A stretch of 64,000 nt of DNA. Source: an uncultured Thermoleophilia bacterium. GTDB taxonomy: Bacteria; Actinomycetota; Thermoleophilia; UBA2241. The stretch spans positions 439,032 to 503,031 of the forward strand of contig CAVPXV010000005.1 in NCBI GenBank assembly GCA_963709845.1. Reading direction: 5' to 3'. Under the pieces are notes generated by a model. The model made no database searches and was not told the DNA's origin. It saw nothing but the letters and a program-made list of their open reading frames with translations. Made by a program: the position numbers and the translations under genes. Every line of letters starts with the position of its first letter. Position 1 is the stretch's first letter. Positions 44,726-62,528 of the stretch are shown one piece after another.

Positions 44726-44859
44726 GACACTAAGAGATATCGCCCGCGGCGCCCGGATACTTGAGTGGCAACGCCGCGTGCGTTGTCACAGCGGACAACG
44801 CGAGGAGCTCTCCCCCAGCCTCGAAGGCGGCGTTGCCGCGCCGCGAGGCGGCCCTGGGG

Positions 44860-46565
44860 TCAGCGGTCGAGCAGCTCCCGCAGAGCGGCGGCGAGCTCGG
44901 CCACGGGCACGTCGCGGCGCTCGCCGCCGGCGCGGTCCTTGAGCTCGACGACGCCCTCGGGCGCGCGTTTGCCGACGACCACCTGCGCCGGGCAGCCGAG
45001 CAGGTCGGCGTCCTTGAACTTGATGCCCGGGGCTCAGGTCGCGGTCGTCGTAGAGCACCTCGAAGCCGGCGGCGGCGAGCTCGGCGTAGAGCCGCTCGGC
45101 GAGCGCCGCCTGCGTCTCGTCGGAGGCGCGCACGAGCACGAGGTGCACGTGGAACGGCGCGATCGCCGCCGGCCAGACGATGCCGTTGCCGTCGTGGTGC
45201 TGCTCGATGGCGGCGGCGGCGATGCGCGCCAGGCCGATGCCGTAGCTGCCCATGACGATGTCCTGCTCCTTGCCGTCCTCGTCGAGGTAGGTGGCGCCCA
45301 TGGGGTGCGAGTACTTGGTGCCGAGCTGGAAGATGTTGCCGACCTCGATCACCCGGGCGCCCTCGAGCTGCGTGGGCGCAGCGCGCGCAGGGGTCGCCCG
45401 GGCGCGCCTGGCGCAGGTCGCGGAACTCGGCCTGCGGGATCTGCGCCGGCGAGACGCCGCCGCGGTGGTAGTCGGGCTTGTTGGCGCCGGCGACGTAGGA
45501 GCCCCGGCGCAGCGCCTCGTCGGCGATCACCGGCAGCGAGGTCGGCACGGGGCCGACGAAGCCCGGCTCGATGCCCTGGGCAGCGAGCACCTCGTCGGCC
45601 GTCGCCATGCGCAACTCGGCGCCGAGCGCCTTGCGCAGCTTGAGCTCGCTGAGCTCGTGGTCGCCGCGCAGCAGGACCATGACGGCGCGGCCCTCGCCGC
45701 CCTCCGCGTCCTCGGCGATCACCACGAGCGCCTTCACGAAGCCGCGCGCCGGCACGCCGAGGAAGGCGCTCACCTCGGCGATGGTGCGCGCCCCGGGCGT
45801 GTGCAGCTCGCCCTCGCCGGGCACCTCGGCCGGCGCCTCCGCATCGGCGCCGGCGACGGCCGTCTCCACGTTGGCCGCGTAGCCGCACTCGCGGCAGTAG
45901 ACGATCTCGTCCTCGCCGGCCTCGGCGAAGGCCATGTACTCGTGCGAGACGTCGCCGCCCATCATCCCCGAGTCGCCCTCGACCATCATCACCGCGAGGC
46001 CGCAGCGCGCGTAGATGCGCTCGTAGGCGCCGATGTGCTTGCGGTAGCTCTCCTGGAGGGCCTCGAAGCTCACGTCGAGGCTGTAGGAGTCCTTCATGAT
46101 GAACTCGCGCGTGCGCAGCACGCCGCTCTTGGGCCGCGCCTCGTCGCGCTCCTTGGTCTGGATGTGGTACCAGAGCTGCGGCAGCTGCTTGTAGCTGTGG
46201 ACCTCGCGCGCCGCCAGCCAGGTGATGACCTCTTCGTGGGTCATCGCCAGCGCCATGTCGGCGCCCTTGCGGTCCTTGAGGCGGAAGAGCTCCTCGTCGA
46301 TGGCGTCCCAGCGGCCCGACTGCTGCCAGATCTCGGCCGGGTTGATGACCGGCATGAGCATCTCCTGGCAGCCGATGGCGTCCATCTCCTCGCGGATGAT
46401 GGCGGCGATCTTCTGCATCACGCGCCAGCCGGCCGGCAGGTACACGTAGACGCCGGCGGCGAGCTGGCGCACGAGGCCGGCGCGCACCATCAGCTTGTGG
46501 CTGATGGCCTCGGCGCCGGCCGGATCCTCTTTGACGGTGGGCAGGAGCAGCTGACTGGCGCGCAT
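44860..46565 (-). pseudogene. proS: Proline--tRNA ligase (bacterial type), two frame changes near the 3' end
   Basis: N-terminal 400 aa intact in ORF 44730..46565 (MRASQLLLPTVKEDP..., class II motifs). The anticodon-binding domain continues in ORF 44786..45352 ([18 protein letters not shown]...). The last about 55 aa ([10 protein letters not shown]...LLDR) are in a third frame. Confidence 0.8.
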
Positions 46566-46609
46566 GTGACCTCGCGATGGTGTGGTGTGGCGGGCGAGGC
46601 CCTATGCTA

Positions 46610-48856
<2,247 letters not shown>

Positions 48857-48913
48857 GCCGGCGATTGTATCAGCCGGCGCCGCCCGCCCGATGTCGGGGA
48901 CTGGCGACCGTTG

Positions 48914-50067
48914 TCAGGCTCGCACGAGCCTTCGCGCGTACTTCGTCGCCAGACGCAACGGCCTGTAGGGCCAGTACAGTGCCGTGAAGGCCGGCTTCAG
49001 ATCGAGCGCCACCCAATCCCCGGGGCCGGGCGTAAAGAGCCTTCGCAGCACGGATTCTGCCGCCGCCAGCGCCGAATCCTCGCTGAGCGCCATCCTGGCC
49101 AGGCTGCGCAGCTCGGCGCCGACCCCGGAAGAGCGGCCTTCGTGAAGCTGGAGAAGAGCCGCGCGAGCCAGCGACTCCGCGAGTGGGTCGCCGGAGAGCT
49201 CGGCCTGGACCTCCAGCGGCAGTGGCAGGTCGAGGGCCACACTCACGACGCGCGCGCCGATCAGACCACGGCGCAAGCAGCGCCAGCGGCGGGCGTCATC
49301 GAGGAAGATCCGCCACTGCGTCGGTGTCATCATGCGCATGACTCTCCCCGCGACCACCACTAGTTCAAGCCGGTCCCACTCGTGCCTTGCGCCGTGCACG
49401 CAGAGCATGAGCAGCGTGTCGTCCAGGCTCGGAGCGGCCACCGACCTGTCAAGTAGGTCAATCGAGTCGAGCGTTCGATGAGATGGTCCGCCGGGATAGA
49501 TGTGGCCTTCAGTAGCGTGCCGACGCGCTCGTGCACCTCCAGCAGGCAGTCGAGGGCTGGGCTGTCGAAGGCCAGCTCCCCGCCCTGCGCGAGATGCGAC
49601 GCGTCGTGCTCCGGTGGCCAGCCGCCGCGACGCGTGAACCCTTCCCGCAGCAGCGCTTCCGTCGCGAGCGGCACCTGCTCGTGAGGGACCAGCACGTCGA
49701 GGTCGGCCGGGGCTCTCAAGCCCGGGTCACCGAACGCTTGCACACTCAGCACGGGGCCCTTGTACGGCAGCGCCGTGATGCCGGCGGCAGACAGTAGGTC
49801 GAGCACGCGGCACAGTCGTGAGGACATGAAGAGGCCGCGCTGCACGGAAGATCGGTAGAGGCTCTGCAGGGTGTCCTTGGCGTCGGCCGGGCACAGGGAC
49901 GGATCCAGCGAGAGCACCTGCTTGTAGAGGAGCGCGCTGAGCCGGTGGTCGATGCTCTGCTGGATTACGGTGGGCCAGTCGACGGTGGCCCGAGCCGCCC
50001 GCTCGAGGTCGCTCGTCGAGGCCGCGCCGACCGCGACGCGCGCGCACGCCACCAGGAGCGGCGACAA
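48914..50067 (-). pseudogene. Nucleotidyltransferase-family protein (PF14907-like, RiPP-cluster associated), one frame change near 49400
   Basis: N-terminal part ...ITALPYKGPVLSVQAFGDPGLRAPADLDVLV; C-terminal part LLMLCVHGARHEWDRLEL in the adjacent frame. Confidence 0.65.
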
Positions 50068-50077
50068 GCCGGGCGCG

Positions 50078-51223
50078 TCAGCCAGTGTCCTCTCTCCTAT
50101 CGCCCGAGGATGGGCCGGGCGCCGGCGCCGCCAGTCGCCCGGCCGGGAACAGGCCGTCCTGCTCGGCGAGCTCGCAGAACCAGTAGGCGCCGAGCACGTC
50201 GCCGGAGCGGTAGTAGTTCTGGGCGATGCAGGAGCCGAGGCAGGCGGCGCGCATCAGGCAACGGCCACACACACCGCCGAGGCCGTCGGGCAGACCCTCG
50301 CGGATGCGCACGAGCACCGGGTGCTCGCGCCAAACGTGCGCCAGCTCGCCCTCGCCGGCGCGACCGAATACCAGCTCCGGCACGTGCTCGCCGATGCCGC
50401 ACAGCGCGTAGCTGCCATCGGCCAGCAGGCCCAGGATCCCACGGATGCCGCAGATGCCGCAGCCGTCGCCGCCGAGGTACTCCCCGAGGGGGCGGAAGGC
50501 CGCGGGGACGTCGACGTAGATCGGCAGGGAGAACCGCTGCCGGAGGTCGTCGCGCACCCGCGAGTGAAGCTCCAGGTACTCGCCGATCGACAGCCCCTCC
50601 CCGCTGGCGTAGATGTCCTCGCCGCGCAGCGTCGGCTGGATGAAGTTGATCTTCACGGAGCCGACGCCCAGCTCCTCGGCGAGCTCCAGCACCGCCTCGA
50701 GCTCGCCGACGTTCGTGCGCATCGCGCTCGTGATGAACTGCGTGTCGAGCCCTGCGGCGACCAGGTTGCGCGTGCCCTCGAGCGTGCGCGCATGCGCCCC
50801 GCGCACGCCGCGGATGGCGTCGTGCACGTCCGCGGAAGCGCCGTCGAGGCTCACGGAGACGAAGTCCACGCCGGCCTCCAGGAGGTGCTCCGCCAAGGCG
50901 CTGGTGACCAGGAGGCCGTTGGTCTCCATGTGCCCGCCGAGCCCGTGATGTGCCTGGATGTCCAGCAGCTCGCCGAAGGCCGGGTGCAAGGTCGGCTCTC
51001 CGCCCGTCCACTTGAGCGTCGTCAGGCCGAGCGGCTTGGCCTCCTCGATGGCGGCGTCCAGGGCGGTAGGCGTGAGGAAGCGCGCGGCGCGGCCGCCGCC
51101 CGCCTTCTTGGCAGGTACGATCCAGCAGTGCCTGCAGGCGCAGTTGCAGCCGTCGGTCACGTACACGTAGAGCTGGCGCAGGGGCGGCGTGCTCACGCTC
51201 GCCGGCGACTCCGTCACTTCCAC
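50078..51223 (-). CDS. Radical SAM/SPASM-domain peptide-modifying enzyme
   Basis: Cx3Cx2C cluster DGCNCACRHCW and a Cys-rich C-terminal SPASM region (CGICGI...CGIGE...CGRCLMRAACLGSC). Confidence 0.85.
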   Translation of the reverse strand: MEVTESPASVSTPPLRQLYVYVTDGCNCACRHCWIVPAKKAGGGRAARFLTPTALDAAIEEAKPLGLTTLKWTGGEPTLHPAFGELLDIQAHHGLGGHMETNGLLVTSALAEHLLEAGVDFVSVSLDGASADVHDAIRGVRGAHARTLEGTRNLVAAGLDTQFITSAMRTNVGELEAVLELAEELGVGSVKINFIQPTLRGEDIYASGEGLSIGEYLELHSRVRDDLRQRFSLPIYVDVPAAFRPLGEYLGGDGCGICGIRGILGLLADGSYALCGIGEHVPELVFGRAGEGELAHVWREHPVLVRIREGLPDGLGGVCGRCLMRAACLGSCIAQNYYRSGDVLGAYWFCELAEQDGLFPAGRLAAPAPGPSSGDRREDTG

Positions 51224-52318
51224 CCCGCGATCCCCTCGGCCTCGAGCTCCGCCTCAAAGCGGCGCAGGCAGGCGTCGGGGCTCGGCCGATTGGCGTCGCC
51301 GAGCAGCGAAAGGGCTCCACCGGCGCAGTTGCCGGTGCACGACTCGATGTAGTCGCAGCCCGCGCACTCCTCGAACTCGGCCAGCGCTTTCTGCCGGCGC
51401 GCGCGCAGCTCCTGCAGCGCCGGCGCGCTCTGCCACACGTCCACAAGCCGGTCTTCGCCGATGTGGCCGAGTACGATCTGCGGCAGCGCCACGCACGGCA
51501 CGTAGGCGCCGTCGGCGCGCACCGCAAGTTGCTTCAGCATGCAGCCGCAGCCCACGAGTTTGCCATGCCCTGGGATGGGCTCTCCCGCCTCCCGCGCCAG
51601 CTCCAGGGCGCAGAACATGTGCCAGTCAGCGAGAGGGCCGGCCATGGCAGTCACGCGCCCCGGATAGCGTTCCTCGAGCTCGGCGAGCGTGTGCATGGCC
51701 TGCACCCGCTGCGCCGGCGTGAGGAACATCCCGAGCTCGTACTTCTCGTGGGTGCCCAGCGAGGTGATGGCGTTGGTGCTGAACGTCGGCAGGCCGAGGT
51801 CGTCGAGCAGGAGCGCCGCCAGCGCCGGCAGGTCGTCGAGGTTGGCGCGCGTTCACAGTCACGCGCACGGTCGTCGGCAGCCCGGCCGCCTGCAGCGTGC
51901 GGATCGCGCGCAGTGCAGGCTCGAAGGTGCCGGGGCCGCGCAGGCGCTCGTGCGCCGCTGCGGTGGAGCCGTCCAGGGAGACCTGGACGGACGAGCACCG
52001 CCGCGTCGCCGCCAGCGCCTGCGCGAGCTCAGCCGTGACGAACCACCCGTTGGTGAGCACGCGAAAGCGGATGTTGCGGCTGCCGAGCTCCTCGGCCAGC
52101 TCGACGAAGTCGGGCCGCATCAGCGGCTCTCCGCCCGCCAGCGTGGCTTCGAGGACCTTTGCCTCGGCGAGTTCGTCGAAGAAGGCGAGCCACGCCGACG
52201 TGGGCAGGTCCTCGTAGCGCACGCCCTCGTTCTTCAGGTAGTAGCAGTAGGCGCAGCGCGCGTTGCAGCGGCTGGTGAGCTCCAGGTCGACCTCGAGAGG
52301 CGTGCGCGGCAGCGAGGC
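51214..52318 (-). pseudogene. Second radical SAM/SPASM-domain enzyme, one frame change near 51680
   Basis: Radical SAM half LELTSRCNARCAYCYY...LAGGEPL in ORF 51626..52504. SPASM half (CGCMLKQLAVRADGAYVPCV...CAGCDYIESCTGNCAG) in ORF 51214..51729. Confidence 0.75.
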
Positions 52319-52323
52319 CAGCG

Positions 52324-52623
52324 TCACGAAGCCACCCTCAGCGCACCCGCGTCGGCCAGGGCGCCCAGCAGCTCCACCACCTCGCGGCTCCCCTCCTGGT
52401 CGAAGCCGTCGAAGCCGCGGCGGAGTTCCGCCAGCAGGTCTCCGACCGTGCGTTCGCCGACCACAAGCCTCCACACGGCAACCGTCGAGCGATTCGCGAC
52501 CCACACCTCGCCGGTGTCCGCGTCGAACAGGATCGCCTCGCCGCCATCTTCCTCCCTGAGCACCCAGCTCGGGTTGATGGTGACTCGCGCGCCCGCGTCC
52601 AAATCGGGTCGATCAGCTCGCAT
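52324..52623 (-). CDS. PqqD-family peptide chaperone (RiPP recognition element)
   Basis: 99 aa with WVLREEDGGEAILFDADTGEVWVANRSTVAVWRLVVGERTVGDLLAEL, the PqqD pattern. Confidence 0.7.
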   Translation of the reverse strand: MRADRPDLDAGARVTINPSWVLREEDGGEAILFDADTGEVWVANRSTVAVWRLVVGERTVGDLLAELRRGFDGFDQEGSREVVELLGALADAGALRVAS

Positions 52624-52676
52624 CGTGCCTCCACTCCCCGCGACTCCTCGACGTCTCGCGCCGGAGTCGCGCTACA

Positions 52677-53681
52677 ATGGCCCCGCTGACTTTCACCGCA
52701 ACGTCAGGCGGTGTCAACCGACCTCAGAGGCCATGTTGCCTTCTCATCCTGTCGACAAGAGGAACGCCTCGCGACCGCATCGGGCGCATCTCCTTCGGCC
52801 CACTGCAGTACGAGCTTGTCGCCGCCGACGACTGGGGCGATGCCACACTGGACGACGTACGTCGACACGTCGAGATGCAGACCTTCGAGGGCGCCTCGCT
52901 GCGGCGCGTGATCTACGCCGGTGTCGAGACTACACAAGCGGAACGGCGGATGGTGGATGGGGGCCGTTTGCCAGCCCCCCTCCAGGCTGCTCACGCCGGC
53001 GCCCTGCCGGCGGACGGGTGGCGGGTCACCGGTGACGACGCCGGCAGCATCCTTTGGCTGCACCCGGGTTCGCCCGTCACCTTCTTGACACCCAGCCCCC
53101 TGCCGCCGCCGCTGCGCGCGCGCATCCGCCTGCCCTGGCAGGCGATCGTGCAGGACGTCGTGGGCTACGGTGGCGCCGTCGTGCACGCAGCCCTCGTGAC
53201 GCACGCCGACAGGGCCTACCTGCTCACCGCTCCCCCTGGGGGCGGCAAGACGAGCACCGTCGCACGCCTGCCCAAGGGTTGGACGCTGCTGGGTGACGAC
53301 GGCTGCCTGCTGTGGGCTGGCAGCGGGCAGTTCTTCGCCAGCCCGCTGCCCACGTGGAGCCACGTGCTGGGCGTAGGCGCAGCGCCGGTCGGGGTCGTGA
53401 CATGGCGCGTCGCTGACGCAGTACCAGTGTACGGCCTTGTCCTGCTGACGAAGGCAGCGCGAGACTCGCTCGCAGAGCTGGACCCCCTCGGAGCCACGGT
53501 GGCGTTCTACCGCGCCTTCTCGGAGCACCCCGCTGTCGTTGGCGCGAGGACAGAGCTGCGTGCTCACCTACTCGAGACGGTCGGCGCTCTCGCGGATACT
53601 GTACCTTGCCACGAGGCACGATTGGCCCTCGCTGCGGCACCGCTCGACGATCTCTTCTGCGCACTGGCTGATGCTGGCTGA
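52677..53681 (+). CDS. HPr-kinase-like (HprK C-terminal-like) P-loop protein of RiPP clusters
   Basis: GGAVVHAALVTHADRAYLLTAPPGGGKTSTVARLPKGWTLLGDDGCLL matches the HprK-related kinase core. Confidence 0.65.
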   Translation: MAPLTFTATSGGVNRPQRPCCLLILSTRGTPRDRIGRISFGPLQYELVAADDWGDATLDDVRRHVEMQTFEGASLRRVIYAGVETTQAERRMVDGGRLPAPLQAAHAGALPADGWRVTGDDAGSILWLHPGSPVTFLTPSPLPPPLRARIRLPWQAIVQDVVGYGGAVVHAALVTHADRAYLLTAPPGGGKTSTVARLPKGWTLLGDDGCLLWAGSGQFFASPLPTWSHVLGVGAAPVGVVTWRVADAVPVYGLVLLTKAARDSLAELDPLGATVAFYRAFSEHPAVVGARTELRAHLLETVGALADTVPCHEARLALAAAPLDDLFCALADAG

Positions 53682-54306
53682 GCGCGCCGACAGGGACGTA
53701 CGACACTTCGTCTACCGCGGGCGAAGCATGTGGCCGCTGTTCCGGGACGGTGACGTCCTCATGGTGCGGCCGGTGCGTGGGCGATCGATACGCCTGGGGG
53801 ACTGCGTCGTGTTTTGCTCGCGACCCGGCCTGCCGCCGATAGTCCACCGTGTCGTTGGCCGCACGGGCGGTTACAGAACGAGAGGCGACGCGCACGCCGA
53901 GTACGACGATCAAGTACTGGGCTCGCTAGACGTGATCGGCGTCGTCTCTGCGCGAGTCCGGGCCGGAGCCGTCAGTAGGGTGTCAAGAGGTTGGAGGGGC
54001 CTCGGCGCGGCGAGCATCGCTCGCCAGGCCGCGAAGCTCGATCCTGCGCTCGACTCGCGAGGCGGCGCACTGGCTCGCGTGCTGAGGCGCACGCTGACGC
54101 GGGCGGCGGACAACCTGGGCCGCCGTGTGACCCACGTGCCTCAGCCTCAGGGTCAAGGAGATCGCGTGGTGCGGCTGGAACTGCTGGGGAAGGTCGTCGG
54201 CGTGCACACCATGCGGCACAGGCACATCGACGTCGACGTGTTCTGGCCGTGGACGCTGCTCTTCACAGCTGAAGCCCTCGAGGAGGGTATCTGCGGGCGA
54301 AGCTAG
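53671..54306 (+). CDS. S26/LexA-like signal-peptidase family protein (candidate leader peptidase)
   Basis: GRSMWPLFRDGDVLMV...GDCVVF...PIVHRVV...TRGDAHAEYDDQV...VIGVV, the SPase I / S24-S26 motif order. ATG overlaps the upstream stop. Confidence 0.65.
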   Translation: MLAERADRDVRHFVYRGRSMWPLFRDGDVLMVRPVRGRSIRLGDCVVFCSRPGLPPIVHRVVGRTGGYRTRGDAHAEYDDQVLGSLDVIGVVSARVRAGAVSRVSRGWRGLGAASIARQAAKLDPALDSRGGALARVLRRTLTRAADNLGRRVTHVPQPQGQGDRVVRLELLGKVVGVHTMRHRHIDVDVFWPWTLLFTAEALEEGICGRS

Positions 54307-54333
54307 GCTTCAGCGCCAGACCGCCGCTCAGGT

Positions 54334-54522
54334 CTACCTGCTGGAGCCGACCTGGCAGTTGCCCTGAAAGTGAGTCCCGCCGGTCTGACAGTGGTTGCCG
54401 GAGGCCGCGGTGCTGCCCGTCTCACAGACGCCGGTCGTCACTGTAGAACCGTTGCTGCACGCCCCAAAGACTTCGGGTAGGGACTCAAGTTTGACTAACT
54501 TTGGTGTCTCCCAACGCTCCAC
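54334..54522 (-). CDS. Candidate RiPP precursor peptide (62 aa, 4 Cys in 11-12-residue repeats)
   Basis: GTG start with RBS AAAGGGG. MERWETPKLVKLESLPEVFGA leader-like part, then CSNGSTVTTGV/CETGSTAASGNH/CQTGGTHFQGN/CQVGSSR. Codon usage is A/T-ending (tta, aaa, ttt, aca, tct, tgt), unlike the rest of the window. Confidence 0.6.
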   Translation of the reverse strand: MERWETPKLVKLESLPEVFGACSNGSTVTTGVCETGSTAASGNHCQTGGTHFQGNCQVGSSR

Positions 54523-54895
54523 AGTTCGGCCCCTTTGTGTGCGTTTCCCGCTCGGTTGCGCGCCATCCTACTTCGTTCGGGGTTCCGGACGCAAGAGTCA
54601 GGATGGTGTCAAGCATGCCTTTCGCGACCAGGTCCTCGACGAACGCGAGGAGGTCACCGAGCAAGTCGTCTGGCGCCGCGTCGAATCGCGTGGCCGCTCC
54701 GCCGACCACGTCGCGCAGCGGTCGAGAGCCGTCGATGAGCTCCCAGATCGCCTGCCCTGTCGCGTTGAGCGTGAACAGATCGTCGAGCGGGTCGCCGGCA
54801 TCCGCGTGCAGGGGCGCGAGGACGACGCGGCCGCCGACCAGGCGGGCCGCGACGTCCGGCGAGTGGATCAGGACGGTGTCGGGTGAGAGCGTCAC
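54485..54895 (-). CDS. Second PqqD-family protein
   Basis: GTG start. VLAPLHADAGDPLDDLFTLNATGQAIWELIDGSRPLRDVVGGAATRF pattern. The 3' end overlaps the precursor ORF start in another frame. Confidence 0.6.
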   Translation of the reverse strand: MTLSPDTVLIHSPDVAARLVGGRVVLAPLHADAGDPLDDLFTLNATGQAIWELIDGSRPLRDVVGGAATRFDAAPDDLLGDLLAFVEDLVAKGMLDTILTLASGTPNEVGWRATERETHTKGPNCGALGDTKVSQT

Positions 54896-55074: not shown

Positions 55075-56862
55075 GTGCGGCTGGTGTGGCGCGCCGCCCC
55101 GGGCTGGACCGTCCTCACCGTCTCCCTCGCCTTCGTCCAGGGCATCCTGCCGCTGTTCGCCGTCTACCTGATGAAGCTCATCGTCGACGCGGTGACGCAG
55201 GGCATCACGCAGGCCGACCACGCCGCCGCCTTCCGCACCGCCGCCTTCTACATCGCCCTGGCGGCGCTCGTCGGCCTCGCCACGGCGCTCCTGCGCTCGC
55301 TCGGCGCCGTCGCCAGCGAGGCCATGGGCCAGGTGGTCACCGACCACGTCAGCGACCTCATCCACGAGAAGTCCATCGCCGTCGACCTCGAGTACTACGA
55401 GAACGCCGAGTACTACGACACCCTGCAGCGCGCCCAGAACGAGGCGCCCTCGCGCCCCACGCAGATCGTCAACGACCTGCTGAGCACCGGCCAGAGCCTC
55501 ATCTCCGTGATCGCCATGGTCGGCCTGCTGCTCACGCTGCAGTGGTGGGTCGGCGCGATCGTCGTCGCTCACCGCCATCCCCGGCGCCCTCGTGCGCGTG
55601 CGCTACTCGCACCGCCTCTACGACTGGCAGCGCGGGCGCACCTCCACCGAGCGCCGCGCCTGGTACGCGCACTGGCTGCTCACCAGCGGGCCGCACGCCA
55701 AGGAGGTGCGCCTCTTCGGCCTCGGCGAGCTCTTCCGCGGCATGTACAGCGACCTGCGCCGCGTCCTGCGCACCGAGCGCATCGGCATCGCCAAGCGGCG
55801 CGCCGCCGCCGACTTCGCCGCCGGCGCCCTGGCCGTGCTCGCCATCTTCGGCACCTTCGCCTACATCGTCTGGGAGACGATCATCGGCGCCATCAGCCTG
55901 GGCTCCATGGTGATGTACTACCAGGCCTTCCAGACCGGCCTCACCTCGCTGCAGGCCGTGCTCGGCGGCATGGCCGGGCTCTACGAGGACAACCTCTTCC
56001 TCACCTACTACCACGAGTTCATGGCGCTGGAGCCGCGGGTGCTGCCGCCGGCGCAGCCGGCGCCGGTCCCGCGGCCGATGAGCGAGCGGCGTCCACTTCG
56101 AGGCCGTCGACTTCGCCTACCCGGACACGGAGCGCCAGGCGCTCGCCGACGTCACCCTCGACATCCGCCCCGGCGAGGTCGCCGCCCTGGTCGGCCCCAA
56201 CGGCTCCGGCAAGACCACGCTCGTCAAGCTCCTGTGCCGGCTCTACGACCCCACGGCCGGCGCCATCACCCTCGACGGCACCCCGACCGAGCGCCTTCGA
56301 CGTCAGCGAGCTGCGCCGCCAGATGAGCGTCATCTTCCAGGACTTCTCGCAGTACCAGTTCACGGCGCGCGAGAACATCCGCATCGGCAACGTGGAGCTG
56401 GCGGCGGGCGACGCCGGCGGCGGAGGCGGCGGTGGAGGCCGCCGCCCGCGAGGCCGGCGCCGACGAGGTCATCCGCAGCCTGCGCCACGGCTACGAGACG
56501 ATGCTCGGGCAAGCTGGTTCGAGGAGGGCGAGGAGCTGAGCGTGGGCGAGTGGCAGAAGGTGGCGCTCGCCCGCGCCTTCGTGCGCGACGCGCAGATCCT
56601 CGTCCTCGACGAGCCCACGAGCGCGCTCGACCCGGAGGCCGAGTGGCAGATCTTCCAGCACATCCGCGAGCTCGCGCGCGGCCGCGCCGTGGTGCTCATC
56701 AGCCACCGCTTCAGCACCGTGCGCACGGCCGACCGCATCCACATCCTCGACGGCGGCCGCATCGTCGAGAGCGGCAGCCACGACGAGCTCGTCGCCCTCG
56801 GCGGCCGCTACGCGCGCATGTACGAGGTGCAGGCGCGCGCATACACCACCGGCGACGGATAG
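55075..56862 (+). pseudogene. ABC exporter (fused TMD-NBD, MsbA/MdlB-like), at least 5 frame changes
   Basis: TMD in ORFs 55075.. and 55592..56326. NBD motifs split across frames (Walker A GPNGSGKTTLVKLL, Q-loop, signature LSVGEWQKVALARAF, Walker B ILVLDEPTSALD, H-loop ISHR). Confidence 0.8.
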
Positions 56863-56910: not shown

Positions 56911-58146
56911 GTGATCGACGCCGGCCCAACCACACGACCAGCATCGCGCCTCTGGAGGCGCTGCACGGCCGGCGCGGCGCCTCGCCGCGGTCGCCTCCGT
57001 CACGCCACCCGCCTGGCCGCCGTCGCGGCTCTCGTGCTCCTCGGGTTCGCCGGCTCGGCCGCCGCCCTGGCGGCGGCCCCGCCGCCCGCCTCAGCCCTCT
57101 CCAAGGGCCTCATCGAGCCCCGCTACGAGCAGTCCACGACGGACCTGGTTCGCGCCAGGCTCATCACGCAGATGGGGTCGCAACTCCACACCGGCTGGGT
57201 GCTCATCAACGTCGATTGGGCCAAGCCTGGAGCCCACGCGCGGCCTCTACGACCCGGTCGAGGTCGCGCGCCTCGACACACTCGTCAACGGCCTGCACAA
57301 GGCCGGCATCAAGGTCATGCTCTCTCCCTGCTACGTGCCGGCGTGGGCCTCGCAGACCTCGTGGTGGACGAAGCCGCCGCCGAGCTACGGCGTCGGGCTA
57401 CCAGCCCTTCTACCCCATCCGCTCGGACGCCCTGCCGGACCTCACCCGTCTGGGCAAGTTCCTTGCCACCCACTTCAGCGGCCGCGTGCAGGCGCTGCAG
57501 TGCTGGAACGAGCCCAACCTGTGGCCGTTCCTCTACCCGCAACGCACCAGCGACGACGCCTACTTCGGGGCGCGCACCTACCTGGGCATGCTCAAAGCGT
57601 TCCACGCCGGCGTCACGCAGGCGCACACCAAGGTCCAGGTCGTCGCCGGCGCCACGGCGCCGATCGGCCTCAACGACTCCATGCGCACCAGCCCTCAGCG
57701 CTTCGCCGGCTTCCTCGCCCGCAACCACGCGGGCAGCTACTTCGACGCCTACTCGCACCACCCGTACACGCCCGGCGGCACCATCTTCCAGCGCCCCGAC
57801 CAACCGCCCAACGACCCTTCGGTGACGGTCACGCTCTACAACCTGAGCACGCTGCTGCGCCTCTTCCCCACCAAGCCCTTCTACCTCACCGAGTACGGCT
57901 ACAACACGCACCCGTCGATGGCGTTCGGCTACTTCACGGTGAGCGCCGCCAAGCAGGCGGTGTACCTGCGGCTGGCGTACGCGCGGGCGCGCAAGTACCC
58001 GCAGGTCAAGGTGCTGTTCTGGTACCTGCTCTACGATTCGCGCCCGACGTCCGGGCCGGCCGAGCAGGGGCGTCTACACGGGCCTACGAGAGGGCAACGG
58101 GACGCGCAAGCCGGCCTGGTACTCGTTCCGCGACCTGCCCAGGTAA
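56911..58146 (+). pseudogene. Secreted GH5-like glycoside hydrolase, 3 frame changes
   Basis: Signal peptide, then WNEPNL (catalytic acid region) and TEYGYN (nucleophile region) split over ORFs 56911.., 57317.. and 57216.. Confidence 0.6.
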
Positions 58147-58208
58147 CGAAAGGGCGCCGCGCGGCGCAGACTCTGCGTCGGCGCGCGGCGCCCCGATCCA
58201 GAACCGTG

Positions 58209-58960
58209 CTACTTCTTGACGGTGAGCGTCGAGCTGTTGCCGGTGGTCGTGGCGGCGAGGTACGGAGCCGCCTTCGTTGCGTTGGTGTAGGCCTGGAAGC
58301 GGTACTTCCCAGCGGAGCCGAGCTGGAGCGTGAGCGAGTACTTGCTGTAGGCGCCGCTATTCGAGTTGGTCGCCGTGTAGGTCTTGTACGTGCTCCATTT
58401 GCCGTTCTTGTAGCGGAAAGCGCTGATGTGCACGGGATTGACGCCCGGCCCGGCCTGCGGCTTGAGCGTGCCGGTGATGGTGAAGTTCTTGTTGATCTTG
58501 ACGGAGGCCGGCACCTTGGGGACGGTCAGCGACGGCTTGACGTGGATGAGCAGCGAGTTGCTGAGGGACGGGATCGTACGGAGGGTTGCCGAGGAATACG
58601 AAGCGGTAGTAGGTGAGCTGCTGGGGGTACACCACGGCGGCGTATTGGCCGGTGGCGTACTGCCCCGGGTCGGTGGTGAGCGTGGCGAGGAGCGTCCACG
58701 GAGAGGGTGACCGGTGGGCGACCACTCCAGACGCACGAACTGGCCGCCGAGGGCCGTGAGCGTGACGTATCCATGAGGGTGCCGGTGACGATCTTGTAGC
58801 CGCCCCAGGTGATGGTCGAGTTGGTCGGGACGGCCGTGAGGCTCGTCGTGTCGGCGGCGGCGATGGCCGGGACGACGAGCATCACCAGCATCGCCGCGAC
58901 GACGACGAGCAACACCGGCACCTTCATCCGGGCGGGCTTGATCGCGGACCTTGCGTTCAT
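58209..58960 (-). pseudogene. Secreted beta-sandwich (Ig-like) protein, 2 frame changes
   Basis: Signal peptide MKVPVLLVVVAAMLVMLVVPAIAAA in ORF 58526..58960. Beta-rich Thr/Ser domain in ORF 58209..58736. Confidence 0.45.
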
Positions 58961-59015
58961 GACATGGCCTCCAATGTCGTCACGGCGTGGCGTGCCTCAA
59001 TCTACGGACGCAAGT

Positions 59016-60698
59016 CTATGCGAGTGGCGCGGCGGAACAAAGGGGGACGACGCTTCTGGCCGCCGCCGTGGGCGGCGCCGAGGAGGCCGTCAGGCGATCG
59101 GCGCTGCCGGCTTGCTCGTCTTGGCCTCGTACTTCTTGCCGCTCCGGCTGTACGAGTAGCCGGACGAATAGGAGGAGTAGTAGCGCCCCTGCCGGTGCTC
59201 GCCGTCGGTGCGCACGATGATGCCGAGCGCGGCGCACGGGAGCTTGCCGAGCTGCTCGGCCGCGCGCTCCAGCATCGGCCTCGTCGCGACGTGCATGTCG
59301 ACCAGGAACACGAGTCCGTCCACCGTCGAGGCCAGCGCCGCCGTGTCGCCCACGGCAAGCAGCGCCGGCGAATCCACGAGCACGATGTCGGCCGTTGAGA
59401 CAAGCGTCTCGATCATGCCGGCGAACCGCCGGGACGCGACGATCTCGCCCGGGTTCGGCGGCAGCGGCCCGCTGGTGAGCACGTAGAGGGAAGTGACGCC
59501 CTCGCTGCCGGCCGCCCATCCCTCGAAGTCCACACCGTTGGCCCCGTTGCCGCTCGAGGTCACCACGACCTTCTGCAGCGCCGAGTCCAGCGGGCCCTTC
59601 CCGGTCGTGACGGTGCTCACGCCGTGTTCGTTGTCGAGCCCGAAGTACTGATGCTGGCGCGGGCGCCGCAGGTCCCCGTCCACGACGATGACCTTCTTGC
59701 CGGCGAGCGCCATGGCCACCGCCAGGTTGGCGACGGTGACGCTCTTGCCCTCGCCCTGGATGCCGCTCGTCACGAGCAGCGAGTGCACGTGGGCATCGAC
59801 GCTCATGAAGTCGAGATTCGTGCGCACGAGGCGGAACGCCTCGGCGGCGTGCCCGTCGGGGTCGCTCAGAGTCGCGACGGTGTGCTCGCCCAAGAGCCGC
59901 TTGGAGATGCGCGGGATGCGACCGAGGACGGGCTGACGAAGGACCTGGGCCACTTCCTCGGAGCGCCGTACGCGCGTGTCGAACTGCTCGAGGAGGAAGG
60001 CCAGGCCGATCGCCAGCGAGGAGCCCGACGCCGAAGCCGAGCACGGCGCTGCGCAGCGGCTTTGGCGAGACCGGCGCTGCGGGCGGCGTCGCCGGCACCA
60101 GCACGCGGAAGTTGCCCGTGGCGGTCGCCTTGAGGATCCTGAGGTCCTGCAGGCGCTGTGCGAGGACGAGGTAGTCGGTGCTCTGCTGGGCCGCTCCCTG
60201 ATAGGACTTGAGCTGCGTCTTGGTCGCGTGCGATGGCCCGCTGGATCTGCGTGGCGGTCTGCTCGCGTGCGCCAGCGCGACGAACGCCACCGCGTAGGCG
60301 TTGGCGGCCGCGGCCGCCAGCCTGGGGCTCGAGCTCGTGGCGGTGATGCGCACCACGTTGCTCGTCGTCGTCGTGGCCGCCGCCCCGGTGTCGGTGACGG
60401 GCTGCGACGAGACCGTGAAGCCGGTGACCGCGACGCCCTTGTCGCGCAGCACTCGAGCGGCTCGCCGCGTCATGTCCGGGCTCGCCAGCACGCTCCCTAC
60501 GCTGGCCAGCTCGAGGTTGCGCGCGGTGGGGTCGGTGTACGTCTGCCCGGTCAGCGGATTGGAGAGGTCCAGCTGCTGCTCGTAGATGAGGTCGGCGCTG
60601 GCCTCATACTGTTTGGTCTGGCGCGCCGAGAAGAAGTAGGCCGAGCCCGTGGCCACAGCGACCACCAGCAGGATGATCCACTTGCGGCGCCAGAGCAC
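59016..60698 (-). pseudogene. Fused Wzz-type chain-length determinant + BY-kinase (polysaccharide tyrosine autokinase), one frame change near 60020
   Basis: N-terminal TM/Wzz part LWRRKWIILLVVAVATG. Kinase part with Walker A GIQGEGKS, VVDGDLRRP and a Tyr cluster YYSSYSSGYSYS in ORF 59090..59953. Confidence 0.8.
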
Positions 60699-61074
60699 GG
60701 CCAGGTAGTCGCCAAGCGTGATGGCTCGGCCCTCGCCAAGTTCGCTCGCCGCGCTGGGCGGAGCCGCCTGGCTGGTGGGCGGGGGAATCGTTTGTGGGGG
60801 TCACTTGATCCCTTCGATCAATCGCGGCGCCACGACCGGCCGCTGGGCACACATGCAGACAGTAGCAGGACGAGACTCCCAGTCCAACCGCGGCGAAGCG
60901 AGGGCTGCCGTGCCGGCAGGACGCATGGCGGGCCACCATCGAGGTGTGACCCTGCTTGTGAACGGAAATTGCGAGCGTCGTCAGCCACTTCACAGTAAGA
61001 TGTGCCCCTGAGGCCGCTAACGGGGGTCCGCGGGCAATGACCGTCACGAGAGGTCGCGCTCAATCGAGACATGC

Positions 61075-62528
61075 GTGCGCCACGGCTGCTGCCGTCGCGC
61101 AGCCGGGCTGCTGCGCGCGCATTCGCTGCGACGTGGCCTCAGCGTCCTCGCCCTCATGGCGACTGACGTCGGGGCGTTCGCTCTGTCGTACGCACTCGTA
61201 TCGCTGGCATCGGGACTCGCGCGACTCGCGGCGTGGCACGGCGTGTCTCGTCGCGGGTTCTTCACCGCCGAGCGTGGCCATCGTGGTGCACATGCGCTGC
61301 TGAAGGGGCTCTACGGTCGCCTCCACGCTCGCCACTCCGCCAGAACGGATCCTCTCTGCGTGGGGCATCGCCGCGTTGGTGACGACGCTGGTGCTCGTCG
61401 TCATCGATGGTGACAGCATCGGGCTCCGGCTTCTCGTCGTGTGGTGTCTCGCCACGGCGATTTCGCTGGCGGCAGGTGGGCCTACGACACGTGCGTGTGG
61501 CTCGCTACGGGCAGGAGGCAGAGCACCCGCCCTGCCCTGCTCCTCGGCAGCCTGGACTCGTGCCAGCGGGCCCTGCCCGTGCTTCCGGCGCTTCCGCCCG
61601 AGAGTCCGGGTCTCGGTCGTCGGCTTCGTCGTGCCGTCGAGAAGAGAGTGGCTCGACCGTGGCACACGGAGGGCCACCCCCGTCGTCGGCACTCTCGACC
61701 AGCTGGCAGGGTCGGCGAGGAGTACGGGAGCGACGAGGTCGTCATAGCGGATCGCGACTCGGTCAACGGGCAGCTGAGCGGCGTCATGGACGCGTGCCGC
61801 ACCCACGGCGTCGGCGCTCAAAATGATGGCGACGGGCTCTCAATCTGAATGGCGACCGCGTGACCTACGTGCCGGGATTCGACTGCCCGATCTTCGTCGA
61901 TGCAGACGAAGCCAGGCCGGGCACGCGAGCTTCCTCGCCAAGCAGGTCCTGGATCGAGTACTCGCTGCGCGTCCTTGCTCCTCCTCCTGAGTCCACTGCT
62001 GGCGGGGCTTGCCCTGGCGATCAAGCTGACGTCAGCAGGGCCTGTGTTCTTCGTCGATGAGCGGGTGGGCATCGGGCAGCAGCCGTTTCGCCTGTACAAG
62101 TTCCGCACGATGGTCGCAGACGCCCGAGAGACGCAAGCCGCTCTCGAGTCCGAGAACGAGGCAGGCGAACGTGCTGTTCAAGATCCAGGAGGACCCCAGG
62201 GTGACGCCGCTGGGTCGCGTCCTGCGGCGGTTCAGCCTCGACGAGCTGCCGCAGCTCGTCGAACGTTCTCAAGGGCGACATGAGCCTCGTGGGTCCCCGC
62301 CCGCTGCCGCTGCGCGATTGCGCGCTGATGGAGGACTGGCAGCGACAGCGGCACGTCGTCCTCCCGGGCATCACCGGGCTGTGGCAGGTGAGCGGCCGCA
62401 GCTGTCTCGACTTCGACGATATGATGGACCTCGATCTGCGCTACATCGAGACGTGGTCGCTGACCAGCGACCTGCACATACTCTGGAGGACTGCCGACGC
62501 AGTCGTCCGTTCGCGTGGCGCCTGCTGA
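61075..62528 (+). pseudogene. Polyprenyl-phosphate glycosyl-1-phosphate transferase (WbaP-like sugar transferase), about 4 frame changes
   Basis: Bac_transf motifs LLLLLSPLLAGLALAIKLTSAGPVFFVDERVGIGQQPFRLYKFRTM, VLFKIQEDPRVTPLGRVLRRFSLDELPQL and MSLVGPRPL...PGITGLWQVSGRS in successive frames. Confidence 0.7.

What the first reader, a model, noticed from the sequence alone, without database searches (positions are those of the whole stretch)
52677..54306. HprK-like protein and S26 peptidase form an overlapping + strand pair convergent on the precursor gene
The S26 ATG (53671) overlaps the HprK-like stop (ATGCTGGCTGA), implying co-translation. The pair is transcribed toward the precursor, whose stop lies 27 bp from the S26 stop. 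HprK-like enzymes phosphorylate lasso peptides in known clusters. An S26/LexA-fold protease inside a RiPP cluster would be an unusual leader peptidase. The -3 residue of the possible VFGA|C site is Phe rather than a small residue, so the cut site is uncertain. A TACAAT hexamer lies immediately 5' of the HprK-like ATG, a possible leaderless start.
Basis: partly seen in the sequence, partly recalled or inferred. Interest (0 to 1): 0.55.

Follow-up and report, generated by a model that had tools for sequence, protein, structure and literature searches.

The report
Kinase-like protein plus soluble signal-peptidase-like protease pair
Two overlapping genes, a kinase-like protein and a membrane-less relative of signal peptidase, are a conserved and sometimes fused core pair of an uncharacterised peptide natural-product gene cluster (the SynChlorMet cassette), and the protease is probably a type of leader-removing enzyme not yet described for such peptides.

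Summary
ORF 52677-53681 (334 aa) and ORF 53671-54306 (211 aa) overlap by 11 nt (ATGCTGGCTGA). They run towards a 62-aa Cys-rich precursor gene (54334-54522, minus strand) whose stop codon is 27 nt away.

The locus is a SynChlorMet (SCM) radical-SAM peptide cassette: ScmF, ScmE, ScmD(PqqD), ScmA and ScmC.
- **Second protein:** it is an unnamed soluble S24/S26-fold protein. It carries the ER/archaeal-type Ser19-His59-Asp79 triad (matching SEC11A S56/H96/D122), not a Ser-Lys dyad, plus a family-specific C-terminal domain.
- **Conservation of the pair:** it recurs in about 35 SCM loci, usually with a 4-nt ATGA overlap, and is fused into one ORF in several.
- **Cut site:** 34 precursors share an invariant Gly with A/I/V/T two residues before it. 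This fits the signal-peptidase -3/-1 rule for a cut at EVFG|AC, not VFGA|C.
- **Leaderless start:** not supported, because TACAAT overlaps the ATG.

I found no paper on the cassette, and a 2023 review of RiPP leader proteases does not mention S26 enzymes. I rate it a new variant of a known kind. All function is inferred.

The parts
52677..53681 (+). ScmC, the HprK/PEPCK-fold P-loop protein (334 aa). Key residues: H170 (53184-53186); P-loop A185-T193, APPGGGKTS (53229-53255), with K191 at 53247-53249; D207-D208 (53295-53300).
53671..54306 (+). Soluble S26B-like peptidase (211 aa), probably the unnamed 'ScmB'. Key residues: Ser19 (53725-53727), His59 (53845-53847), Asp73 (53887-53889), Asp79 (53905-53907). 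It has a family-specific C-terminal domain of about 100 aa (residues ~105-211).
53671..53681 (+). 11-nt start/stop overlap ATGCTGGCTGA between ScmC and the S26-like gene, implying translational coupling.
   Evidence: The overlap is conserved in related loci.
54334..54522 (-). ScmA precursor (62 aa). The leader is residues 1-20 (VERWETPKLVKLESLPEVFG). The predicted scissile bond is Gly20|Ala21 (codons 54465-54463 | 54462-54460). The core is ACSNGSTVTTGVCETGSTAASGNHCQTGGTHFQGNCQVGSSR, with four CxxG repeats.
   Evidence: TIGR04252 ScmA at E 9e-4. Family portrait from 34 unique precursors.
54307..54333 (.). 27-nt spacer between the convergent stop codons. No terminator-like or unusually stable structure.
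   Evidence: Folding gives z-score -0.49.
52324..52623 (-). ScmD, a PqqD-type peptide chaperone. It is divergent from ScmC across a 53-nt spacer.
   Evidence: PF05402 at 3.4e-8 and TIGR04248 at 4.2e-13.
51214..52504 (-). ScmE radical SAM/SPASM maturase, split over two frames (ORFs 51626-52504 and 51214-51729).
   Evidence: TIGR04250 at 3e-48 and 3.5e-53 on the two pieces.
50078..51223 (-). ScmF radical SAM/SPASM maturase.
   Evidence: TIGR04251 scores 425.5 bits, above the cut-off of 400.
54485..54895 (-). Second PqqD-family protein, upstream of the precursor and overlapping its start by 38 nt.
   Evidence: PF05402 at 2.2e-13. It is also present in the closest relatives L001 and L002.
48914..50067 (-). 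NTP_transf_5 nucleotidyltransferase-fold protein, split over two frames.
   Evidence: PF14907 at 8e-27 and 5e-6. The same family sits near SCM loci L005, L009, L012, L013, L015 and L023 and is fused to S26-like proteins.
55075..56862 (+). ABC exporter with frameshifts. No C39 peptidase domain is possible, because only 180 nt lie upstream.
   Evidence: PF00005 and the ORF map.
52663..52678 (+). GGAG (52663-52666), a plausible ribosome-binding site 10 nt before the ScmC ATG, and TACAAT (52673-52678), which overlaps the ATG.
   Evidence: Sequence, hexamer count and no sigma-70-like promoter match.

Best explanation
The two genes are the conserved maturation pair of a SynChlorMet-type radical-SAM RiPP cluster.

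Shown:
- ScmC and the S26-like protein are co-located, translationally coupled and in some lineages fused.
- Both keep the catalytic signatures of their superfamilies.
- The precursor family has an invariant Gly with a small or beta-branched residue two positions before it, at the leader/core border.

Inferred mechanism:
1. The PqqD-type proteins (ScmD and a second copy) bind the short W-E/Q-x-P leader of ScmA.
2. ScmE and ScmF cross-link the CxxG-repeat core.
3. ScmC, an NTP-dependent phosphotransferase of the HprK/PEPCK superfamily, acts on the peptide. The best candidate target is the invariant Ser/Thr five residues after the first Cys. The NTP_transf_5 enzyme may then decorate it further, as in phosphoglycosylated lasso peptides.
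4. The soluble ER-type Ser-His-Asp peptidase, working in complex with ScmC in the cytoplasm, removes the leader by cutting after the invariant Gly (EVFG|AC in the window).
5. The ABC transporter exports the product.
For: Cluster identity:
- ScmF scores above its curated cut-off. ScmE, ScmD, ScmC and ScmA all give matches.

Pair conservation:
- An S26-like gene lies next to ScmC in 16 of 18 informative loci from the genome scan and contig look-ups. It is directly downstream in 15 of them.
- ScmC is directly upstream of the S26-like gene in 19 of 21 informative metagenome loci.
- The 4-nt ATGA overlap is usual.
- Fusions occur as one ORF in L037-L040, from four samples, and in nine protein representatives below 50% identity.

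Protease competence:
- S19 is conserved in 176/177 sequences, H59 in 186/186, D73 in 185/186 and D79 in 179/184.
- The profile aligns these residues with SEC11A S56, H96 and D122.
- There is no transmembrane segment, and the Ser lies 7-22 residues from the N-terminus.
- No other protease and no C39 domain is present in the cluster.

Cut site:
- Gly is invariant in 34/34 precursors.
- The residue two before it is A/I/V/T in 33-34/34.
- The residue after it is variable.

Kinase-like nature of ScmC:
- H170, GGGK191T and D207-D208 are invariant. HprK_rel_A matches at E 2.3e-6.
- The ScmC pattern scan also retrieved a lasso-peptide kinase locus with order K-B1-B2-C-D-N.

Precedent:
- An HPr-kinase homologue phosphorylates lasso precursors.
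- A nucleotidyltransferase glycosylates the phosphate and is sometimes fused to the B2 protease (PMC8498205).
- Here S26-like-NTP_transf_5 fusions exist.
Against: - No experiment on any SCM cassette was found. Every functional step is inferred.
- The window proteins score below the curated cut-offs of the signal-peptidase and ScmC NCBIfam models.
- The ScmC profile finds no HprK or PEPCK in PDB by sequence. The relationship rests on fold and a short motif.
- The known lasso kinases target a C-terminal Ser, which these precursors lack.
- Two ScmC loci lack an adjacent S26-like gene (L003, L008), so the protease is not strictly obligatory or may be encoded elsewhere.
- The invariant Gly could be conserved for recognition by the radical-SAM enzymes rather than for cleavage.
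- ScmE, NTP_transf_5 and the ABC gene are frame-shifted in this window. This is probably assembly error, since proS is also split, but decay of the cluster is not excluded.
Confidence: 0.55

Rival explanations
1. ScmC is not a tailoring kinase. It is the nucleotide-dependent substrate-recruiting or activating subunit of a two-component leader protease, comparable in logic to lasso B1/B2. The final product carries no phosphate.
For: - Tight coupling and recurrent fusion with the protease rather than with the radical-SAM enzymes.
- ScmC is a core component, whereas lasso kinases are accessory.
- The two-domain PEPCK-like architecture has a conserved N-terminal domain of unknown role.
- There is no conserved C-terminal Ser in the precursors.
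Against: - The HprK-type catalytic His and Asp-Asp are invariant along with the P-loop, which suggests real phosphotransfer.
- Ser/Thr at Cys+5 is invariant in 34/34 precursors.
- NTP_transf_5 often co-occurs, and in lasso systems it acts on a phosphate.
Confidence: 0.2
2. The S26-like protein is a transpeptidase or cyclase, or a C-terminal trimming enzyme, rather than a leader peptidase. From my own knowledge, the S26-family TraF cleaves and cyclises the RP4 pilin TrbC, and SipA assists pilus polymerisation.
For: - Many precursors end in a conserved C-x-x-G-N-G-x-K/R/Q tail with small residues that could also fit an S26 site.
Against: - SipA lacks catalytic residues, whereas this family keeps Ser-His-Asp almost invariantly.
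- The C-terminal tails are not conserved in the actinobacterial-type members (window ...CQVGSSR; L001 ...CQSGNTP).
- The leader/core junction motif is universal.
Confidence: 0.08
3. The S26-like protein is a catalytically active but unrelated housekeeping or regulatory peptidase (LexA-like self-cleaving regulator or genuine secretory signal peptidase) that merely neighbours the cluster.
For: It has the S24/S26 fold, and some sources annotate relatives as 'signal peptidase I'.
Against: - It has no DNA-binding domain and no membrane anchor.
- Adjacency to and fusion with ScmC holds across Actinobacteria-like, Chloroflexota and Desulfobacterota-type MAGs.
- The precursor leader has no hydrophobic signal-peptide core.
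Confidence: 0.04

Closest known systems
SynChlorMet (SCM) cassette of TIGRFAMs/NCBIfam (ScmA TIGR04252, ScmC TIGR04249/PF27840, ScmD TIGR04248, ScmE TIGR04250, ScmF TIGR04251)
   Same: The window has all five named components in the typical order ScmC -> <- ScmA ScmF ScmE ScmD. ScmF scores above its curated cut-off.
   Different: - The S26-like gene between ScmC and ScmA matches no SCM-specific model in NCBIfam or Pfam, although it is as conserved as the named parts.
- This actinobacterial-type version adds a second PqqD and scores below cut-off for ScmC, ScmD and ScmA.
- I found no experimental work on the cassette.
ER/archaeal-type signal peptidases (MEROPS S26B: SEC11A/C, archaeal signal peptidase I, Bacillus SipW)
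   Same: - The Ser-His-Asp catalytic residues align in the SM-x-P, HRV and GD...D motifs.
- The fold is the same.
- The predicted site obeys the -3/-1 rule.
   Different: - There is no transmembrane anchor and the protein is predicted cytoplasmic.
- It has an extra conserved C-terminal domain of about 100 aa (AGRxDPxRxxRGGRLAR...WPW).
- The presumed substrate leader is short and hydrophilic, not a Sec signal peptide.
- It is partnered or fused with a kinase-like protein.
Nickel superoxide dismutase maturation protease SodX (TIGR02754, S26 family)
   Same: It is a small S26-type peptidase that removes an N-terminal propeptide. That role comes from the model's name and my own knowledge, and it makes SodX the nearest functional precedent. 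It gives a weak sequence match (E 3.9e-4; 2.9e-7 for relative P0044).
   Different: The substrate and context differ. It has no C-terminal domain and no kinase-like partner, and the match is far below cut-off.
HPr kinase/phosphorylase and PEP carboxykinase (PEPCK-like P-loop superfamily)
   Different: - There is no significant sequence match to Pfam Hpr_kinase_C or to PDB sequences.
- The two-domain layout resembles PEPCK more than HprK.
- The context is a peptide natural-product cluster, not carbon catabolite control.
Lasso-peptide tailoring pair: HPr-kinase homologue (PadeK/PsmK type) plus nucleotidyltransferase (PsmN type)
   Same: - The cluster logic is the same: kinase-like, PqqD chaperone, protease, class-defining enzyme, ABC exporter, NTP_transf_5. 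Compare L021 K-B1-B2-C-D-N.
- The nucleotidyltransferase is sometimes fused to the protease in both systems.
   Different: - The protease here is S26-like instead of the transglutaminase-like B2.
- The class-defining enzymes are two radical SAM/SPASM proteins instead of the lasso cyclase.
- The kinase-like protein is core and coupled to the protease.
- The precursors have no conserved C-terminal Ser.

Membership tests
Peptidase family S26 (signal peptidase I), subfamily S26B (ER/archaeal type) | S24/S26 beta-fold catalytic domain | tested here: met
Peptidase family S26 (signal peptidase I), subfamily S26B (ER/archaeal type) | Nucleophile Ser in the S-M-x-P motif | tested here: met
   Ser19 in GRSMWP, conserved in 176/177 family sequences. 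It aligns with SEC11A Ser56.
Peptidase family S26 (signal peptidase I), subfamily S26B (ER/archaeal type) | General base His (S26B) rather than Lys (S26A/S24), plus the triad Asp | tested here: met
   His59-Arg60 is conserved in 186/186 and Asp79 in 179/184. They align with SEC11A His96 and Asp122. The Ser-Lys dyad of S26A/S24 is not met.
Peptidase family S26 (signal peptidase I), subfamily S26B (ER/archaeal type) | Membrane anchor with the active site at a membrane surface | tested here: not met
   The highest 19-residue Kyte-Doolittle mean is 1.22 for the window protein and below 1.4 in 23 of 24 family members. The Ser lies 19 residues from the N-terminus.
Peptidase family S26 (signal peptidase I), subfamily S26B (ER/archaeal type) | Score above the curated model cut-off (TIGR02228 51.85 bits; Pfam PF00717 23.3 bits) | tested here: not met
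   48.0 bits and 21.2 bits. Relatives score 40-50 bits.
Peptidase family S26 (signal peptidase I), subfamily S26B (ER/archaeal type) | Proteolytic activity at a site with small residues at -1 and -3 | not testable with these tools
   Only the candidate site is seen: Gly at -1 in 34/34 and A/I/V/T at -3 in 33-34/34.
SynChlorMet cassette protein ScmC (TIGR04249 / PF27840) | Match to the family model | tested here: inconclusive
   TIGR04249 scores 59.9 bits against a cut-off of 125, over residues 159-271 only. The identical protein P0005 and all 10 relatives carry a precomputed PF27840 hit. Full-length alignment shows 25 invariant columns.
SynChlorMet cassette protein ScmC (TIGR04249 / PF27840) | Genomic context with ScmD, ScmE, ScmF and ScmA | tested here: met
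   All four are present within 3 kb. The same arrangement is seen in about 35 loci.
HPr kinase/phosphorylase (HprK/P) | C-terminal kinase-domain fold with the P-loop | tested here: met
HPr kinase/phosphorylase (HprK/P) | Sequence membership (Pfam Hpr_kinase_C/N; significant match to solved HprK sequences) | tested here: not met
   No Pfam hit at E<=0.01. There is no HprK among PDB sequence hits at E<=1 or 10. Only HprK_rel_A matches, at E 2.3e-6 over 53 residues.
HPr kinase/phosphorylase (HprK/P) | Phosphorylation of HPr Ser46 and pyrophosphate-dependent reversal | not testable with these tools
   No assay is possible. The context argues for a peptide substrate instead.
Lasso-peptide HPr-kinase-like tailoring kinases | Target is a C-terminal Ser of the precursor (PMC8498205) | tested here: not met
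   The 34 ScmA precursors end in varied residues (R, P, K, M, V, Q, T, N, A, Y, C, L) and none ends in Ser.
Lasso-peptide HPr-kinase-like tailoring kinases | Cluster contains the lasso cyclase and B2 protease | tested here: not met
   No asparagine-synthase-like or transglutaminase-like gene is in the window cluster. Contrast L021.

The most novel reading that the evidence does not exclude
The soluble ER-type S26B-like proteins with this C-terminal domain are a large, unrecognised family of cytoplasmic RiPP leader peptidases: 2,229 representatives at E<=1e-10 among 50%-identity clusters. In SCM cassettes the peptidase works as an obligate complex, or a fusion, with an HprK/PEPCK-fold phosphotransferase. 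Phosphorylation or nucleotide-dependent capture of the cross-linked core then licenses leader removal. This kinase-gated protease logic has not been described for any RiPP class.
Probability: 0.3. Interest if true: 0.75.

Novelty: new variant of a known kind. Interest (0 to 1): 0.6.

Why it matters
RiPP leader removal is the step that most often blocks heterologous production of genome-mined peptides.
- **New protease family:** a soluble signal-peptidase-like family with a simple, predictable site (small residue at -3, Gly at -1) would add a class to the known toolbox. A dedicated 2023 review lists none of this type.
- **Missing component:** the result names the missing sixth component of a cassette known only from profile models. 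It also gives a 34-member precursor family (CxxG repeats, invariant Ser/Thr) as a concrete substrate set.
- **Shared module:** SCM and phosphorylated lasso peptides appear to share a kinase / PqqD / protease / nucleotidyltransferase module.
- **Testability:** the hypothesis needs only four to six genes and one peptide.

Tried and rejected
1. **Literature.** 'SynChlorMet', the TIGR and PF accession numbers, and the HPr kinase + radical SAM + RiPP + PqqD combination each returned nothing. The Scm gene names returned only unrelated papers. The Haft 2011 paper was not held under the PMC id I recalled.
2. **Leaderless start.** Rejected, for four reasons:
   - TACAAT overlaps the ATG.
   - No in-frame alternative start exists before residue 66.
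   - The hexamer is absent from L001 and L002.
   - The window holds 3 copies against 1.44 expected by chance, and the promoter scan found nothing.
3. **Bidirectional terminator in the 27-nt spacer.** None was found, and the fold is no more stable than shuffles.
4. **Double-glycine / C39 processing at GA|C.** Rejected. The residue after the Gly is E, D, H, V or Y in many precursors, and the ABC exporter has no room for a C39 domain.
5. **ScmC profile and core segment against PDB sequences.** No significant hit. Only the fold search links it to HprK and PEPCK.
6. **Contig look-up of the window's own ScmC (P0005).** Not on record. The window's S26-like ORF is not in the 15-billion-protein collection under any of three start codons, so it was probably not called as a gene in the source.
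7. **AFDB fold library.** Unavailable, so I could not confirm S26-like proteins in the type SCM genomes (Syntrophobacter, Chlorobium, Methanocella).
8. **More distant short S24/S26 relatives** (P0040, P0043, P0056). Their contexts were uninformative.
Full report
**1. The observation**

The coordinates are exact.
- ORF 52677-53681 (+, 334 aa) ends in TGA at 53679-53681.
- ORF 53671-54306 (+, 211 aa) starts at the ATG inside ATGCTGGCTGA, an 11-nt overlap.
- A 62-aa ORF on the minus strand (54334-54522) has a GTG start and an AAAGGGG Shine-Dalgarno-like motif upstream. It ends 27 nt from the S26-like stop codon.
- ATG 53671 is the right start. It puts the nucleophile Ser at residue 19, as in homologues (residues 7-22). 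The upstream in-frame TTG and GTG would add an unconserved extension.

One detail is wrong. TACAAT (52673-52678) overlaps the ATG (52677-52679) rather than preceding it.

**2. What the locus is**

NCBIfam identifies a SynChlorMet (SCM) cassette.
- ScmF (50078-51223) scores 425 bits against a cut-off of 400.
- ScmE is split over two frames (51214-52504).
- ScmD/PqqD is at 52324-52623.
- The HprK-like protein is a sub-threshold ScmC, and the small ORF a weak ScmA (E 9e-4).
- Pfam adds a second PqqD (54485-54895), an NTP_transf_5 protein (48914-50067, split) and an ABC exporter (55075-56862).
- The protein identical to the window's ScmC (P0005) carries the new Pfam family PF27840 ScmC.

Several genes in the window are frame-shifted, including the essential proS. 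I therefore read the breaks in ScmE, NTP_transf_5 and the ABC gene as assembly indels rather than decay. ScmC and the S26-like ORF align full-length with homologues and look intact.

**3. Is the pair conserved?**

From the ScmC side, a genome scan, contig look-ups and profile searches of six-frame ORFs gave 18 informative SCM loci.
- Sixteen have an S26-like gene next to ScmC, and in fifteen it lies directly downstream.
- In the Chloroflexota locus L005 the S26-like gene is upstream of ScmC, with NTP_transf_5 between them.
- L003 and L008 lack it.

From the S26-like side, a metagenome scan gave 21 loci with upstream DNA. ScmC is directly upstream in 19 of them.

Other conserved features:
- The usual junction is a 4-nt ATGA overlap.
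- In L037-L040, from four samples, both proteins are one stop-free ORF.
- Nine protein representatives below 50% mutual identity (465-576 aa) are ScmC-S26-like fusions.
- The precursor is convergent, with its stop within -38 to +27 nt of the S26-like stop.

The S26-like gene is as much a core part of the cassette as the named genes. It is probably the unassigned letter 'ScmB'. That is my inference from the order C-x-A-F-E-D.

**4. The S26-like protein**

- **Conservation:** a 24-sequence alignment (A4) has invariant S19, H59-R60, G72-D73 and D79. In 186 family members S19 is kept in 176/177, H59 in 186/186, D73 in 185/186 and D79 in 179/184.
- **Closest solved relatives:** the profile's best solved-structure matches are human SEC11C and SEC11A (E 1e-7 and 6e-7). 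Ser19, His59 and Asp79 align with SEC11A Ser56, His96 and Asp122.
- **Best curated model:** the archaeal-type signal peptidase I, at 48 bits against a cut-off of 51.85.
- **Location:** there is no hydrophobic segment.
- **Extra domain:** residues ~105-211 form a conserved extra domain (AGRxDPxRxxRGGRLAR...WPW) with no clear structural match.

The protein is thus a soluble ER/archaeal-type (Ser-His-Asp) S26 relative, not a Ser-Lys enzyme.

The family is large. It has 25,996 hits at E<=1e-3, 2,229 at E<=1e-10 and 43 at E<=1e-30 among 1.84 billion representatives. Most SCM-type members carry no Pfam annotation.

Shorter relatives sit beside other radical SAM/SPASM + PqqD clusters (L025, L027, L022). 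S26-like-NTP_transf_5 fusions also exist.

**5. ScmC**

- Invariant residues reproduce the HprK-type pattern: H170, then APPGGGK191T, then D207-D208.
- Sequence-level links are weak. HprK_rel_A matches at E 2.3e-6, there is no Pfam Hpr_kinase hit, and no PDB sequence hit.
- The ScmC pattern scan also pulled out a Novosphingobium lasso cluster with the order kinase-B1-B2-cyclase-ABC-NTP_transf_5.

**6. The substrate**

Thirty-four unique ScmA precursors were collected.
- They share a short hydrophilic leader (W-E/Q-x-P-x-V/I...).
- A Gly is invariant one or two residues before the first Cys.
- The residue just before that Gly is a large hydrophobic in nearly all (L/F/Y/W in 31 of 34).
- The residue two before it is A, I, V or T in 33-34 of 34.
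- The residue after the Gly is variable (A 13, E 9, D 3, H 2 and others).
- The core has mostly four Cys, and 139 of 141 Cys lie in CxxG.
- Ser/Thr sits five residues after the first Cys in 34/34.

Under the signal-peptidase -3/-1 rule (established knowledge for S26 enzymes), the site that fits every family member is after the Gly. In the window that is EVFG|AC, not VFGA|C. A double-glycine/C39 route is excluded by the variable residue after the Gly and by the lack of a C39 domain.

**7. Mechanism**

Shown:
- the two genes are co-located, translationally coupled and sometimes fused;
- catalytic signatures are conserved in both proteins;
- the junction motif is conserved in the precursors.

Inferred:
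1. The PqqD proteins present the leader.
2. ScmE and ScmF cross-link the core.
3. ScmC transfers phosphate, or uses nucleotide to capture the peptide.
4. NTP_transf_5 may decorate the product. In lasso peptides an HPr-kinase homologue phosphorylates the precursor, and a nucleotidyltransferase adds hexose to the phosphate and is sometimes fused to the protease (PMC8498205).
5. The S26-like enzyme removes the leader in the cytoplasm.
6. The ABC transporter exports the product.

My confidence that the S26-like protein is the leader peptidase is about 0.6. My confidence that ScmC phosphorylates the peptide is about 0.4.

**8. Comparison and novelty**

- The cassette itself is a known bioinformatic entity, so the cluster is a new member of a known kind.
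- The protease is different. It fails the membrane-anchor and model cut-off criteria of true signal peptidases but keeps their chemistry.
- No S26, S24 or signal-peptidase enzyme appears in the 2023 review of RiPP leader proteases.
- I found no paper on SCM.
- I therefore rate the pair a new variant of a known kind.

**9. Leaderless start**

This is not supported.
- The hexamer overlaps the start codon, whereas a -10 element for a leaderless mRNA should end about 6-8 nt before it.
- It is absent in L001 and L002.
- A GGAG lies 10 nt upstream, and no promoter-like match was found.

Noticed in passing
window 44730-46565 (proS), 46607-47932 (gmd), 47966-48856 (fcl), 48914-50067, 51214-52504, 55075-56862, 59016-60698: Many genes switch reading frame mid-gene, including the essential prolyl-tRNA synthetase, whose class II core domain is split between two frames. 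This points to indel errors in the assembly (long-read style) rather than pseudogenes.
   Followed up: partly
window 48864-48869 (minus strand): A second TACAAT lies 7 nt upstream of the ATG (48856) of the GDP-fucose synthase-like gene. That spacing does fit a -10 element for a leaderless transcript, unlike the copy at ScmC. Only 3 copies occur in the window.
   Followed up: no
window 46600-48860 and 57200-62300; L023 13799-17701; L002 9019-9650: The SCM cluster is embedded among sugar-nucleotide and polysaccharide genes (gmd, fcl, Wzz/tyrosine-kinase-like, a likely sugar transferase). L023 has WecA-like and GT4 glycosyltransferases next to NTP_transf_5, and L002 also has gmd nearby. This could hint at glycosylation of the peptide or be mere synteny.
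   Followed up: no
window 54285-54360; L001, L009, L011, L016, L023: The S26-like gene and the precursor gene converge with almost no spacer, or even overlap (to -38 nt), and no terminator is found. The 3' ends of the two transcripts must therefore overlap, which allows antisense or transcriptional interference between maturation genes and precursor.
   Followed up: partly
L025 4352-6439; L022 3978-5822; L027 6775-8405: Other architectures link the same three families:
- a 695-aa radical-SAM protein with a faint ScmC hit (possibly a fusion);
- a stop-free frame in which a radical SAM/SPASM match overlaps or abuts an S26-like match (possibly one ORF);
- a radical SAM/SPASM gene overlapping a short S24/S26 gene.
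   Followed up: partly
proteins P0141, P0160, P0191 (623-657 aa): These are fusions of the S26-like peptidase with NTP_transf_5. They mirror the reported fusions of lasso B2 protease with the nucleotidyltransferase. One is from a Candidatus Aminicenantes MAG (NIM89676.1), annotated only as 'signal peptidase I'.
   Followed up: partly
L001 1800-2063 and 2073-2822; L002 4466-4919; L010 1880-2080 and 5255-5464; L016; L046: Several SCM loci encode two different ScmA precursors, whereas the window has one. The closest relatives (L001, L002) also carry PIN-domain toxin genes beside the cluster.
   Followed up: no
window 54485-54522: The second PqqD ORF overlaps the precursor's GTG start by 38 nt, and its last ~40 residues are unconserved. 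Its true stop or the local frame may be affected by an indel.
   Followed up: no
window 53671-54306: This exact ORF, with any of three start codons, is absent from the 15-billion-protein collection, although the neighbouring ScmC is present. The peptidase gene was apparently not called in the source annotation.
   Followed up: partly
L003 126-2242: A ScmC gene at a contig end is followed not by an S26-like gene but by rseP (M50) and dxr housekeeping genes. The window cluster lies beside proS. I did not test whether the two loci share an insertion region.
   Followed up: no
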